This document shows, in pieces, positions 39,186 to 43,464 of a stretch of 64,000 nucleotides of DNA (its first letter is position 1; every line of letters starts with the position of its first letter). The notes under the pieces are model-generated. The model searched no databases. It saw only the letters and a program-made list of their open reading frames with translations, and was not told the origin of the DNA. The position numbers were made by a program, and so were the translations under genes. This stretch comes from the human T2T-CHM13v2.0 reference genome, Homo sapiens. The stretch lies in the NCBI RefSeq assembly GCF_009914755.1, contig NC_060931.1; one strand, given 5' to 3'.

Positions 39186-41099
39186 CATAGTTGTTTCTGA
39201 CTTAGCAGAATGTGTTATATTGGAAACTCTATGCTTCTGTGAATCCAGTACTGCAACTCTCTCCCACTCATTTAAGAATAAATCCTTAAGAATCCCAAGA
39301 AATAAACATATACCACAGTTCAGTCCATTGGGCCAGTATATTTATAGGATAGTCACACAAGTCCAGAAACTGTCAGGCTGTTACTCTGTGAGAATAATGG
39401 GAAGGGTTCTTATCTTCATTCCCACTCCAAAGTAAGGTTTACTTTCTAGAAGTGAGATGCAATATAAAGTACCCACGCAAAAGGTTTGAGGCTTATGCAG
39501 AAAACAAGCATGGATTAGGATAGTTAGGGTTTCATGGAGCATACTTTTTCCATTAACACCAAGAAGATAAATTTAGTTGTCTTTTTCTGCTAGAGCTTTG
39601 TGGAATGGAGTTAGTGAAGTAAAAGGCATATTCCCTTCGTTTTTGTTGCAGAAATAAATGGGCGAGGACACTTTAAAGATTTCGTGTGTGCATTGTGGCT
39701 ACTTGTCCTAAACATAAAATCATACAACTAAATGAAAATCTCTCTTTCAATTCATTTTAACATAGTGATTTGCTGCTTATTAGTGCAATCTGGCAAAAAA
39801 TGTTAGCCAAGCAGCTAATATTTTGTTTACATTTTTGCCCTAGCAAAGATATAACAAATCCCCTAATGTACACCTCTTACTCAGGTATTATTGTAAAAAT
39901 CAACAAGGACCATTTGAACACTGATAATACTAAAAACTGTCGGTTCCCTTATTGTTTCTTTAAAAATAAAACCAAAACAAAGCAATTAACTGCAAAGGGC
40001 TATATTAACCCAAAGCAAAGTTTACATATTTAAACATAGGGGAGTAAGGAAGTACAGAAGTTAAACAACAAGAGAGATAATCTTGAAAGTGGCAAAAGTG
40101 ACTTATCTCACTTAAAAGAGTCTCAATAAGGCTGACAGCTGATTTCTCTTCAGAGACCATGGAGGTTAGAAGACAGTGGCATGACATATTCAAAGTGCTG
40201 AAGGAAAGGCTATCAAGCAAAAGTTCTATCTGTAGAAAAACTCCTCCAATTTTTAAGGAGAAATTAAGGCATTTCCAGATAAACATAACCTGAGAGAATT
40301 TTCCACTAGTAGACCTGTTCTACAAGAAATACCAATGGAAGTCCTTCAGGCTGAAATAAAAGGGTATTAGATCACAATTCAAATCCACATGAAGAAATAA
40401 CACTAATAAGGTAACTGCATAGGTAAATATAAAAGACAGTATAACTGTATTTTTGTTTGTAACATTTTTTCTTCTGTCTGATTTAAAATACAATGACATT
40501 AAAGCAATAACGATAAAACTATGTGTTTGGCTAATAGTGTATTCAGAAGTAATTTGTGTAACAATAACACAAAGAAGAGGGTAGAGAACAGAGCTATTTA
40601 GAAGCAAGATTTTATATACTATTGAAATTAACTTGGTATTAATTCTACCTACATTGTTATAAATTGAGATAATATTAATCACCAGGGATTAAGAAAACAA
40701 CTAAAATGCATACTAATAGAAATAACAAGGGAATTAAAATGATACATTATAAAATACAGATTTTTTATAAAAGAAGGCAATAATAGAGAGAGGACAAAAA
40801 GACAACATATAGAAAACAAATAACAAAATGGTAGACATAAATCCTACCTTATGAGTAATTTATTTAATGTAAATGTATTAAATAGTCCAATAAAAAAAGC
40901 AGATGTTGAAAGAATGGATAAGAAAATATTATCTATTTGTATTCTCTATGTAAGAGACACATATGAGATTCAGAGACACAAATTAGTAAAAGAATGTAGA
41001 AAGTAAAAGAATGGAGGAAGATATGCCATGCAAACAGTGACTGAAAGAGAGCTGACTACACTAATATCAGTATGTTGTGTATCAGACACAATAGATTTT

Positions 41100-41460
41100 T
41101 TTTAAATAATAAAACCGCATTTTTATGTTACAAGAAGATTTTATATAATATCTGCATGATATACCAATTTTCTCATAATCTCTTCTGTAATATTATTTCA
41201 TTAACACTCTGGTCCACAGCTTGATTCAACAAGATCAGGAGGGCAGGCAGGAGGATGTTAAAAGAAAGGTACTGAGGTGTAAAAGGAACCAAACATTTAC
41301 TGACTCAGGCACCTATTCTTGATTTCTGTTCACCTGTTGCCTTGAACAAACTGCCTGAGCTCATATGCCTTACCTCCATAAGGAGCATGACCTTTGGGAA
41401 TTTACCAGGTCCTCATCCCTGTGGACTCAGAATCTTGCTTGGTAAGAGTTTATAATTGAC
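41100..41460 (-). other. ~360-bp non-L1, non-Alu segment enclosed with the Alu in one TSD
   Basis: Lies between TSD gacacaatagatttt (41085-41099) and the Alu T-tail (41461); the L1 resumes at the second TSD copy (41771-41785). Confidence 0.85.
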
Positions 41461-41770
41461 TTTTTTTTTTTTTTGAGACCGAGTCTTGCTCTGTCACCTA
41501 GGCTGGAGTGCAGTGGTGTGATCTCAGCTCACTGCAACCTCCACCTCCCAAGCCCCAGCAATTCTCATGCCCCAGCCTCCCAAGTAGCTGTAACTACAGA
41601 CATGTGCCATCACACCTGGCTAATTTTTGTAATTTTTCTGTTTTTAAGTAGAGATGGGGTTTCGCCATGTTCACCAGTCTGGTCTTGAACCCCTGGCCTG
41701 AAGTGATTGACCTGTCTCAGTCTCCCAAAGTGCTGGGATTACAGGTGTAAGCCACCACGTGGGCCTGGCT
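41461..41770 (-). mobile_element. AluS/Jb-age full-length Alu
   Basis: T14 tail, dimer, 5' end abuts the TSD at 41771. Confidence 0.9.
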
Positions 41771-43464
41771 GACACAATAGATTTTAAAGGACAATAATTT
41801 TACTACAGACAAAAAAGGACATGTTGCAATGATAAAAGGCTCAAACCATGAAGAAGACATAGGAATTGTAAACATTTATGCACCCAAAATGTATGACACA
41901 AAATTGACAGAATAAAATGGAGAAATAGAAAATTTAACAATAATAGTTGGGGACTTCACTACTCCACTTTACATAATGGACAGAACATCCACAAGGAAAT
42001 AGAAGACATGAACAACACTGAAAACTAGGCCTAATAGGCATTTCCACCCAACAACAGTGGAATACATATTCTTCTCAGTGCTCAAGGACTATTCCAGGAT
42101 AAGCCATATTTGCTAGGCCATAAAATAAGTTTCAGGAAAATTTAAAGGACCAACAGCATGCAAAGTATATTCTCCAACTACAATGGAATGAAATTAGAAA
42201 TTAAAAAAAATAAGAATTTAGTAAATTCTCAAATATATGGGAATTAAACAATATACTCCCAAATAACCAATAGGTCAAAGAACAAAGCAAGGTAAACATA
42301 CATGTATATCCATATTAATGAATTAATTTAAAGAATTTTTAGTCACATTATGGCTTAAAAATAATTTTTCAGTATTGTCCAAATAAAGTACCTCATTGCC
42401 ATGATGAAATTGGATACGGGAGATGTTAGCTTGCTAAAAATGACATATAATTATTATGTAAGAGGGACATTAAAAGGCTAACAATTAATTTTGAAGGATT
42501 AACATTCTTATTTTAGAAAGGATGACTCCTGTTAAGACATTCTTGCCTATACATACCTGCTGTTTGGATTTTCTTTCTAATGGAATAGACTAGTTTATAT
42601 TACTATCTATCTTATTGACATCTCAAAGCCCTTGGTTTAAATTGATGGTTCAGTTAGACAAAATCTTAACTTACAAGGAAAAGTTGTTTATGCAAGTGAA
42701 TTTAGAAATTTAGCTATCTATACTTTTAAAAACATTGGCAGTATATCTCAGTGGTATGAGATAGTCCACATCTTTTTATGGACTTTTTGTTTTATTATAG
42801 GCTTTAGTGCCATTAAGGGAAAACTATTTAGTTACTCTAGGAATAGCCAAACATTGTTCCCAGAAATGCTTGTGTTATGTCTGTCATGGTACATTGTTAA
42901 GTTCAGAGCACATGTGTTTAGGAGTCTCAATGCTGGCTGAAGAATGGAAAGGACTTTTATTACAAATAGTGGATTTTATTTAATTTTGAATTTACATTAA
43001 ATGATGAAAAAATAGGTCCTGCAATAATTTAGAGAAAACCTGTCTCTTCAGGGCAAGGACAAATCAATATTGAGTGTTTCAATTGAATTGATGCACTTTC
43101 AATTATAATAATCTTCATGGTAGTTGAAAGGCAGGCCCAAGCAAAAATCATGATATGCACAAAAATATTGCTGGAAGCACTATCTGCTATTAGCTATCTG
43201 CTCATGCTGTTTACCTTCACGGAATTTCTAGGTTCAAAATCAGCCATTTATTTAGAACGCCAGAGTACCCACCAAGGAAGCATATTGTATAGTTTTGTTC
43301 TGACGAAGCATGTGGCTAGAAAACACCAGAAATTAGAGTTGGGGTTACAAAGAGTCTATGCACATTTCTTAAGTCTGAGAGGTTTTTTTCCTTATGATAA
43401 TTCAGTAGATTCCTATAAATGACTCTTTAGTCACAAGTTTTTTTCATTTAGAAGAAAATTAAAG

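What the first reader, a model, noticed from the sequence alone, without database searches (positions are those of the whole stretch)
41085..41785. Alu plus ~360 bp of unique DNA inside one perfect 15-bp TSD: candidate Alu 3' transduction or retrocopy nested in an Alu tail
Seen: the old L1 ORF2 sequence breaks at gacacaatagatttt (41085-41099) and resumes at an identical copy (41771-41785) followed by aaagg, a canonical L1 endonuclease TTTT/AA nick site. On the minus strand the insert reads: full Alu starting within ~5 nt of the TSD, A14 tail, ~360 bp of unrelated sequence ending ...CATAAAaatgcggttttattattt, then a short A8 tract. Established: 3' transduction is common for L1 and SVA but not expected for Alu, because TPRT primes on the Alu's own A-tail and Pol III stops at T4. 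Inference: either one RNA starting at the Alu 5' end carried its downstream flank, or a second polyadenylated RNA 3' end inserted into the Alu tail with its TSD hidden in the A run. T4 runs within the segment and the CATAAA variant signal ~20 nt from the end argue for a Pol II-type 3' end.
Basis: partly seen in the sequence, partly recalled or inferred. Interest (0 to 1): 0.8.

Follow-up and report, generated by a model that had tools for sequence, protein, structure and literature searches.

The report
Alu-led chimeric retrocopy in HDAC9 intron
An old Alu, a scrap of chromosome-10 sequence and the end of the TOMM20 messenger RNA lie together inside one target-site duplication, so this is LINE-1 joining several RNAs (or one insertion landing in another's tail), not an Alu carrying its neighbouring DNA along; it is a tidy example of a known kind.

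Summary
A perfect 15-bp duplication (41085-41099 / 41771-41785) at a canonical TTTT/AA LINE-1 nick site encloses 671 bp. Read on the minus strand, these are a full-length AluS-like element, A14, 357 bp and a short A run.

The 357 bp are not one "unique flank". They are a mosaic:
- 11 nt of unknown origin.
- About 148 nt that are 85% identical to a single locus on chr10, about 10 kb downstream of an intronless GPCR ORF (ADRB1 by recall).
- About 200 nt that are 81-85% identical to the TOMM20 3'UTR and its four processed pseudogenes. This piece stops 47 nt short of the mRNA's normal poly(A) site.

No locus in the assembly holds the two pieces together, and neither source has a co-oriented Alu upstream. 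Alu 3' transduction is therefore rejected.

The chr10/TOMM20 joint has 2-4 nt of microhomology and no splice signals, which fits an RNA-level chimera.

Whether the Alu joined in the same reverse-transcription event (tripartite template-switch chimera, about 0.5) or was there first (bipartite chimera nested in its tail, about 0.38) cannot be settled without orthologous primate loci. Divergences (Alu about 10.6%, TOMM20 piece about 7.8%, chr10 piece about 7.5%) fit either reading. This is a known kind of event of modest interest.

The parts
41085..41099 (+). Target-site duplication, copy next to the A-run end of the insert. On the + strand it is the primer end for first-strand cDNA.
   Evidence: exact 15-mer, found twice in the window, 0 of 100 shuffles reach two matches.
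41100..41103 (-). Remnant 3' A tract (A4). It runs into the AAAA that begins the duplication, giving A8. Position 41104 is a T on the minus strand that does not match TOMM20.
41105..41305 (-). TOMM20 3'UTR fragment of about 200 nt in sense orientation. It is 5'-truncated and ends 47 nt upstream of the mRNA's usual poly(A) site.
   Evidence: 81-85% identity to chr1 (the parent), chrX, chr11, chr9 and chr17 copies. Pfam MAS20, E = 3.6e-26, in the chrX copy; the chr1 copy has a 3' splice site where the chrX copy continues the coding sequence, and the copies end ATTAAA + about 15 nt + A run.
41302..41449 (-). Fragment of about 148 nt copied from (or sharing a recent source with) G000 chr10:114947049-114947194 (+).
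   Evidence: 85% identity and the only other match in the assembly; the chr10 copy sits in its native context, because an inverted second arm spans the start of the homology.
41450..41460 (-). Orphan 11 nt (GTCAATTATAA on the minus strand) between the A14 and the chr10-like piece. Origin unknown.
   Evidence: no alignment to chr10 or TOMM20; exact matches elsewhere are at chance level.
41461..41474 (-). Alu A tail, a pure A14.
41475..41770 (-). Full-length, old AluS-like element whose 5' end abuts the duplication.
   Evidence: Rfam Metazoa_SRP and Alu-derived miRNA families are the only hits in 41000-41900, all within 41457-41622; best genomic relatives are 81-84% identical; 25 of 235 non-CpG positions and 18 of 36 CpG positions differ from a majority consensus of 45 Alus.
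41771..41785 (+). Target-site duplication, copy next to the Alu 5' end.
41786..41790 (+). AAAGG immediately after the duplication. With the preceding TTTT it gives the L1 endonuclease site TTTT/AA in the empty site.
   Evidence: The consensus site is quoted in Law & Burns 2026, Figure 4 legend.

Best explanation
A single LINE-1-mediated target-primed reverse transcription event made a three-part chimeric retrocopy. The L1 endonuclease nicked the + strand at TTTT/AAAG in an old L1 ORF2 remnant. Reverse transcription started on a short A tract at the end of a TOMM20 3'UTR RNA and copied about 200 nt. It then jumped at a 2-4 nt microhomology to an RNA from an intergenic chr10 region and copied about 148 nt. 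It jumped again onto the 3' end of a Pol III Alu RNA and ran through its A tail to its first base. Second-strand synthesis then produced the 15-bp duplication. Shown: the duplication and nick site, the mosaic make-up, the sense orientation of the Alu and TOMM20 pieces, the full-length Alu 5' end and the 5'-truncated TOMM20 piece. Inferred: that the joints were made by template switching (RNA ligation before TPRT would look the same), and that the Alu joined in the same event rather than being there first.
For: (1) One perfect 15-bp duplication and a canonical nick site enclose everything, and the L1 flanks are collinear across it. (2) The 357 bp combine two sources that lie on different chromosomes and are found together nowhere else in the assembly. 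At least one RNA-level fusion is therefore needed under any model. (3) At the chr10/TOMM20 joint the two homologies overlap by TC. The overlap is ACTC if the window's G was once a C, since both sources read ACTC. Neither source has a GT or AG splice signal at the break. (4) The layout matches the rule for template-switch chimeras: a sense-oriented full-length 5' partner and a 5'-truncated 3' partner. Law & Burns 2026 report 452 Alu/LINE-1 chimeras bounded by target-site duplications, mostly full-length sense Alu, mostly AluJ/AluS and mostly about 60 Mya. (5) The ages agree. Alu non-CpG divergence is 25/235 = 10.6%. The TOMM20 piece has 15/193 = 7.8% private changes. The chr10 piece shows 15% pairwise divergence, about 7.5% per lineage. 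(6) The terminal A run is only A8 including the AAAA of the duplication. The chrX and chr9 TOMM20 pseudogenes each have an A8 tail. A nested insertion should have added its own tail plus an all-A duplication to what remained of the Alu tail.
Against: Without an orthologous locus that lacks part of the insert, one event cannot be told from two. Alu tails are favoured L1 targets, so a second insertion there is not rare (recalled knowledge). Doucet et al. 2015 state that tripartite structures can arise either way. The Alu is nominally more diverged than the other two pieces (10.6% against about 7.6%; roughly 1.2 standard errors by my estimate). That is the direction expected if the Alu is older. 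The 3' end is odd for TPRT on an mRNA: it stops 47 nt before the usual poly(A) site, it has no AATAAA/ATTAAA, and only four A's lie outside the duplication. No transcript is known to me at the chr10 source. The 11 orphan nt are unexplained.
Confidence: 0.5

Rival explanations
1. Two events. An AluS inserted first and created the 15-bp duplication. Later a two-part chimeric retrocopy (chr10 RNA piece fused to a TOMM20 3'UTR piece) inserted by TPRT into the Alu's A tail in the same orientation. Its own duplication consisted only of A's and is therefore invisible.
For: The Alu on its own has every hallmark of a normal insertion: full length, A14, and a duplication at a TT/AAAA site. A-rich tails offer L1 endonuclease sites (recalled). 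Doucet et al. 2015 name this route for tripartite structures. The Alu is nominally more diverged than the other pieces. The 11 orphan nt match the start of the outer duplication at 6 of 10 positions when offset by one base (by eye). That match could be a decayed second duplication, but it is at chance level.
Against: This model still needs a rare RNA chimera and then also a hit in a 14-nt tail. The A run to the right of the insert is only A8 including the outer duplication's AAAA. It should hold the second insert's poly(A), an all-A duplication of at least 7 nt and the rest of the Alu tail, whereas the A14 on the left is intact. TOMM20 pseudogenes of similar age keep A8 tails of their own.
Confidence: 0.38
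2. Alu 3' transduction in the reader's sense. A transcript starting at a source Alu read through into its downstream flank, and the whole RNA was retrotransposed.
For: The Alu 5' end lies exactly at the duplication and the extra DNA follows its A tail.
Against: The extra DNA is not one flank but pieces from chr10 and from the TOMM20 3'UTR on chr1. No locus in the assembly joins them. TOMM20 shows no Alu within 1.5 kb upstream of the piece, and the chr10 locus has only an antisense Alu. Three T4 runs would stop Pol III, the first at position 177. The closest genomic Alus are only 81-84% identical and none is a candidate source, although only 40 of 6174 candidates were scored.
Confidence: 0.05
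3. A 5'-truncated processed pseudogene of one Pol II transcript that already contained an Alu, the chr10-like sequence and TOMM20-like sequence (a fusion or read-through RNA). Alternatively, a later genomic rearrangement or deletion created the joints.
For: The 3' piece is mRNA-derived. The missing 47 nt and the very short A run could reflect a later deletion.
Against: Truncation exactly at Alu base 1 would be a coincidence. The sources lie on different chromosomes. TOMM20 pseudogenes of similar age (chr9, chr17) carry normal TOMM20 sequence upstream of the joint. The intact duplication and collinear flanks argue against later rearrangement.
Confidence: 0.07

Closest known systems
Alu/LINE-1 chimeric insertions (Law & Burns, Cell Genomics 2026, PMC13174262; outline, passages and sections 10 and 12 read)
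   Same: A full-length, sense-oriented AluJ/AluS at the 5' end is joined to a 5'-truncated second RNA copy. The whole is bounded by one target-site duplication at an L1 endonuclease motif and dates to early anthropoid times.
   Different: The 3' partner here is not LINE-1. It is an mRNA 3'UTR piece plus a piece of intergenic origin, so there are two joints instead of one. Contemporaneous arrival, their defining test based on multi-species alignment, could not be run here.
Chimeric retrogenes made by L1 RT template switching, including tripartite ones (Buzdin et al. 2003, not held, known only from reference lists and recall; Gogvadze et al. 2007, PMC2104539, abstract and passages read)
   Same: Copies of unrelated cellular RNAs are fused head to tail in one orientation inside one direct repeat. 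Three parts imply two jumps.
   Different: Gogvadze et al. say the two human tripartite elements known then had no identifiable flanking repeats, whereas this one has a perfect 15-bp repeat. The usual 5' partners are U6 and other small nuclear RNAs, and the usual 3' partner is L1. Neither is present here.
L1 and SVA 3' transduction
   Same: Extra non-repeat DNA lies between the element's own A tail and a second A run, inside one duplication.
   Different: A transduced segment is contiguous with the source element in the source locus and ends at a downstream poly(A) signal. Here the segment is a mosaic from two chromosomes, no source has a co-oriented Alu, and no canonical signal is present.
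TOMM20 processed pseudogenes (chrX, chr11, chr9 and chr17 copies found here)
   Same: The same mRNA is the source. The fragment shares old character states with the chr9 and chr17 copies and has a similar private divergence.
   Different: Only about 200 nt of 3'UTR are present. The fragment stops 47 nt before the poly(A) site used by the other copies and is fused upstream to foreign sequence.

Membership tests
L1-mediated (TPRT) insertion | Target-site duplication of about 7-20 bp flanking the insert | tested here: met
   A 15/15 identical repeat, with 0 of 100 shuffles reaching two matches.
L1-mediated (TPRT) insertion | First-strand nick at the TTTT/AA consensus | tested here: met
   The empty site reads GATTTT/AAAGG on the + strand. 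The L1 flanks are collinear in 5 of 5 other copies.
L1-mediated (TPRT) insertion | Poly(A) tract at the 3' end of the insert | tested here: inconclusive
   There are only A4 outside the duplication (A8 with its own AAAA). This is comparable to the A8 tails of the chrX and chr9 TOMM20 pseudogenes.
Template-switch chimeric retrogene (bi- or tripartite) | Parts derive from unrelated loci or RNAs and are fused in the same orientation | tested here: met
   The parts are an Alu, a chr10-derived piece and a TOMM20 3'UTR piece. The two single-copy pieces match different chromosomes and are joined nowhere else in the assembly. The Alu and TOMM20 pieces are in sense orientation. The sense of the chr10 piece is unknown.
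Template-switch chimeric retrogene (bi- or tripartite) | The 5' partner is complete at its 5' end and the 3' partner is 5'-truncated | tested here: met
   The Alu starts at the base after the duplication. The TOMM20 piece covers about 200 nt out of the roughly 2.7-kb last exon.
Template-switch chimeric retrogene (bi- or tripartite) | All parts arrived in one event (present or absent together in orthologous loci) | not testable with these tools
   No primate genomes are held. Divergences are compatible with one event but not decisive.
3' transduction by a retroelement | The extra segment is contiguous with a co-oriented source element at a source locus | tested here: not met
   The two pieces map to chr10 and chr1. 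TOMM20 has no Alu within 1.5 kb upstream, and chr10 has only an antisense Alu 50 bp upstream.
3' transduction by a retroelement | The segment can be transcribed by the element's polymerase and ends at a downstream termination or poly(A) signal | tested here: not met
   There are three T4 Pol III terminators inside the segment (positions 177, 198, 347) and no AATAAA/ATTAAA. CATAAA may be a product of CpG decay.
Processed pseudogene of TOMM20 | Copy of the mature mRNA that ends at its poly(A) site | tested here: not met
   Homology is limited to about 200 nt of 3'UTR and covers no exon junction. It ends 47 nt before the ATTAAA-directed site seen in the chrX, chr9 and chr17 copies.
Alu (7SL-derived SINE), S-type by recall of diagnostic positions | Dimeric 7SL-related body of about 300 bp with an A-rich linker and an A tail | tested here: met
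   Rfam Metazoa_SRP hit with E = 2.6e-9. It aligns end to end with 29 and with 45 other Alus. The subfamily call rests on recall and was not tested against a library.

The most novel reading that the evidence does not exclude
One TPRT event with two successive template jumps produced a human tripartite chimera containing no LINE-1 sequence at all: Alu RNA, then an intergenic chr10 RNA, then TOMM20 mRNA. It is bounded by a perfect 15-bp duplication. That is the direct-repeat proof which Gogvadze et al. 2007 said was missing for the two human tripartite elements then known. A bolder and less likely rider: the 11 orphan nt after the A14 are the 'unique' 3' region of the Alu primary Pol III transcript. 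That region would be kept only because RT entered the Alu RNA by a jump to its 3' end instead of priming on its A tail.
Probability: 0.45. Interest if true: 0.45.

Novelty: new member of a known kind. Interest (0 to 1): 0.33.

Why it matters
The result removes an apparent exception: Alu 3' transduction is not expected, and it is not what happened here. It also gives a clean, fully bounded example of how the L1 machinery can stitch fragments of unrelated RNAs into one insertion, including an mRNA piece that does not end at its normal poly(A) site and an intergenic RNA. If orthologous loci show a single event, it would be a well-documented human double template jump without any L1 part. Such a case is useful as a test for pipelines such as TiMEstamp, which at present look for chimeras only next to LINE-1. 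No function is suggested. The insert lies deep in an HDAC9 intron inside an old L1.

Tried and rejected
- **Source Alu.** Searching the assembly with the Alu gave only generic relatives at 81-84% identity (40 of 6174 candidates scored). No source was identified.
- **Orphan 11 nt as the 3' flank of a source Alu.** A6 plus the 11 nt has 7 other exact matches. With one mismatch allowed there are 316 matches, against 547 for the reversed control, so there is no enrichment. One of the 7 exact matches (chr11, L060) follows an Alu tail. Only 60 nt of that element align with our Alu (81.7% identity), and by eye from recall it looks like a different (J-like) subfamily. I treated it as chance.
- **Orphan 11 nt as chr10 sequence or as a decayed second duplication.** It matches chr10 at 5 of 11 positions and the outer duplication at 6 of 10, both by eye and both at chance level.
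- **chr10-like piece as a known small RNA.** Rfam at E <= 1 gave only Alu/SRP-type hits in the window region and at the chr10 locus.
- **chr10-like piece as a common interspersed repeat.** nhmmer over 285 kb of fetched human DNA found only the chr10 locus and its own inverted arm. By eye it has a short MIR-like core motif (recalled, not tested).
- **Splicing at the chr10/TOMM20 joint.** There is no GT or AG at the breaks.
- **Literature.** Buzdin et al. 2003 is not held. A search for TOMM20 with 'processed pseudogene' or 'retrocopy' listed no paper containing TOMM20 among the top 10 of 146. I found no report of this locus. Casola & Betran 2017 and Wagstaff et al. 2012 were read as passages only and added nothing decisive.
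Full report
**Observation.** The 15-mer GACACAATAGATTTT occurs twice in the window, at 41085-41099 and 41771-41785. None of 100 dinucleotide-preserving shuffles gave two matches. The right copy is followed by AAAGG, so the empty site reads TTTT/AAAG on the + strand, the L1 endonuclease consensus.

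Read on the minus strand, the 671 bp between the copies are:
- a full-length Alu beginning at the first base after the duplication (41770-41475);
- a pure A14 (41474-41461);
- 357 bp not masked as repeat (41460-41104);
- A4 (41103-41100), which runs into the AAAA that begins the second copy.

The flanks belong to an old L1 ORF2 remnant. In 5 of 5 other L1 copies fetched from the same assembly the two flanks are collinear. In L017 the same L1 position aligns to 41070 and to 41771.

**What the 'unique' DNA is.** Searching the window's own assembly with the 357 bp gave seven places.
- Positions 12-159 match one other locus only, chr10:114947049-114947194, at 85% identity. A separate search of that half at E <= 10 found nothing else.
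- Positions 156-356 match five loci at 81-85% identity, on chr1, chrX, chr11, chr9 and chr17.

The five loci are homologous to each other over kilobases.
- The chrX copy carries an open frame that hits Pfam MAS20/TOM20 (E = 3.6e-26).
- The chr1 copy has a polypyrimidine tract and CAG where the chrX copy continues the coding sequence. It also has no A run at its end. It is therefore the intron-bearing parent gene, TOMM20 (the gene name and its 1q42 location are recalled).
- The chrX, chr9 and chr17 copies end with ATTAAA, about 15 nt and an A run.

The window's piece stops at ...TTTTATTATT, 47 nt before that poly(A) site.

The chr10 match lies about 9.8 kb downstream of, and on the same strand as, an intronless 7tm_1 receptor ORF. 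I recognise this ORF as ADRB1 by recall. At chr10 the sequence has a second, inverted arm about 1.3 kb away at about 75% identity. That arm's homology runs across the point where similarity to the window begins. The chr10 copy is therefore in its native context, and the window's piece is the derived copy.

The first 11 nt after the A14 match neither source. Rfam finds nothing in the 357 bp.

Transduction requires the extra DNA to be the contiguous downstream flank of a co-oriented source Alu. That is not the case.
- The DNA is a mosaic from two chromosomes, joined nowhere else in the assembly.
- TOMM20 has no Alu in the 1.5 kb upstream of the piece.
- The chr10 locus has only an antisense Alu 50 bp upstream.
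- Three T4 runs lie inside the segment, the first at position 177.

It may be a product of CpG decay, or it may be an ancestral weak signal. I cannot tell which.

**The joints.** At the chr10/TOMM20 joint the chr10 homology runs to ...CCTGA(G/C)TC and the TOMM20 homology starts at TCAGTAAATG. Both sources read ACTC at the break, so the overlap is 2 nt and possibly 4 nt. Neither source has a GT or AG splice signal at the break. A weak similarity continues for about 30 nt past the joint (18 of 29 columns). It could have helped a jump, but it is near chance level. This is what a reverse-transcriptase template switch, or an RNA ligation, would leave. It means at least one RNA-level fusion took place under any model.

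**Ages.**
- Against a majority consensus of 45 Alus not selected for similarity, the Alu differs at 25 of 235 non-CpG positions (10.6%) and at 18 of 36 CpG positions. Eleven of the 45 other Alus are more diverged. The consensus mixes subfamilies, so 10.6% is probably a slight overestimate.
- In a four-lineage comparison the TOMM20 piece has 15 private changes in 193 columns (7.8%). The chr9 copy has 12, the chr17 copy 17, the parent clade 9, and 6 columns are ambiguous. The piece also shares old character states with the chr9 and chr17 copies.
- The chr10 piece differs from chr10 by 15%, about 7.5% per lineage if both are neutral.

All three pieces are compatible with one date in early anthropoid evolution. 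The nominal excess of the Alu, about 1.2 standard errors by my estimate, is not significant.

**One event or two.** Doucet et al. 2015 state the dilemma exactly. Tripartite structures arise either by double template switching in one insertion, or by a second retrotransposition into the 3' end of the first (passage).

For one event:
- The layout follows the chimeric-retrogene rule: a sense-oriented, full-length 5' partner and a 5'-truncated 3' partner inside one duplication.
- Law & Burns 2026 catalogued 452 Alu/LINE-1 chimeras of that form, mostly AluJ/AluS from about 60 Mya (section read).
- A fusion is needed in any case.
- The terminal A run is only A8 including the duplication's own AAAA. 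That equals the tail of a single TOMM20 pseudogene of similar age. A nested insert should have left its own tail, an all-A duplication and the rest of the Alu tail.

For two events:
- The Alu alone looks like an ordinary insertion.
- Alu tails are favoured targets (recalled).
- The Alu is nominally older.

I put one event at about 0.5 and nesting at about 0.38. No primate genome is held by these tools, so the decisive test could not be run.

**Oddities left open.**
- Why the TOMM20 piece ends 47 nt early with almost no tail. Possible causes are a proximal poly(A) site, an oligoadenylated decay fragment, a first jump from another RNA's poly(A), or a later deletion.
- The origin of the 11 orphan nt.
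- What transcript supplied the chr10 piece.

**Comparison and novelty.** This is a new member of a known kind, the L1-made chimeric retrocopy. Three things set it apart from published sets:
- It contains no L1 or small nuclear RNA part.
- It has three or more source segments.
- It has a perfect duplication. Gogvadze et al. 2007 noted that such a repeat was missing for the two human tripartite elements then known (passages).

I found no report of this locus. Buzdin et al. 2003 could not be read. Supplements of Law & Burns were not consulted and might list neighbouring elements. Interest is modest: a neat case that corrects the transduction reading, with no sign of function.

Noticed in passing
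window 41066-41084 (+ strand): Just outside the left copy of the duplication, the old L1 carries 15 extra nt (TATCAGTATGTTGTG before TATCAGACAC...). These are absent from 5 of 5 other L1 copies aligned. The extra repeats TATCAG directly, and the rest is roughly the reverse complement of the start of the duplication. It lies about 5 nt from where the second-strand nick and final ligation of the insertion would have been, so it could be a repair footprint of the insertion or an unrelated micro-duplication.
   Followed up: partly
L007:1452-1586 and L007:2820-2951 (G000 chr10, about 114.947-114.9485 Mb): The chr10 source region consists of two inverted arms about 135 nt long, about 75% identical and 1.3 kb apart. 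An antisense Alu is inserted at the outer edge of the left arm. This may be two copies of an old repeat or the ends of an old DNA transposon. No other copy was found in 285 kb of fetched human DNA.
   Followed up: partly
L005:1694-1995 (G000 chr11 TOMM20 pseudogene): The chr11 TOMM20 processed pseudogene has a sense Alu inserted within about 8 nt of the position where the window's TOMM20 fragment ends. The TOMM20 sequence resumes after the Alu with a duplicated stretch. This is probably coincidence in an A/T-rich stretch that offers L1 nick sites.
   Followed up: no
window 41475-41770 (minus strand): Relative to other Alus, this Alu has a 10-nt insertion in the middle A-rich linker and about 4 extra nt near its 5' end. 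None of the 29 closest or the 45 unselected Alus aligned showed the linker insertion.
   Followed up: partly
L051:8584-9999 continuing into L052 (G000 chr10:114935683-114937225): An intronless 513-codon open frame with a strong 7tm_1 hit lies in a CpG island about 9.8 kb upstream of the chr10 source piece on the same strand. I read it as ADRB1 by recall. The source RNA could have been read-through transcription downstream of this gene (speculation).
   Followed up: partly
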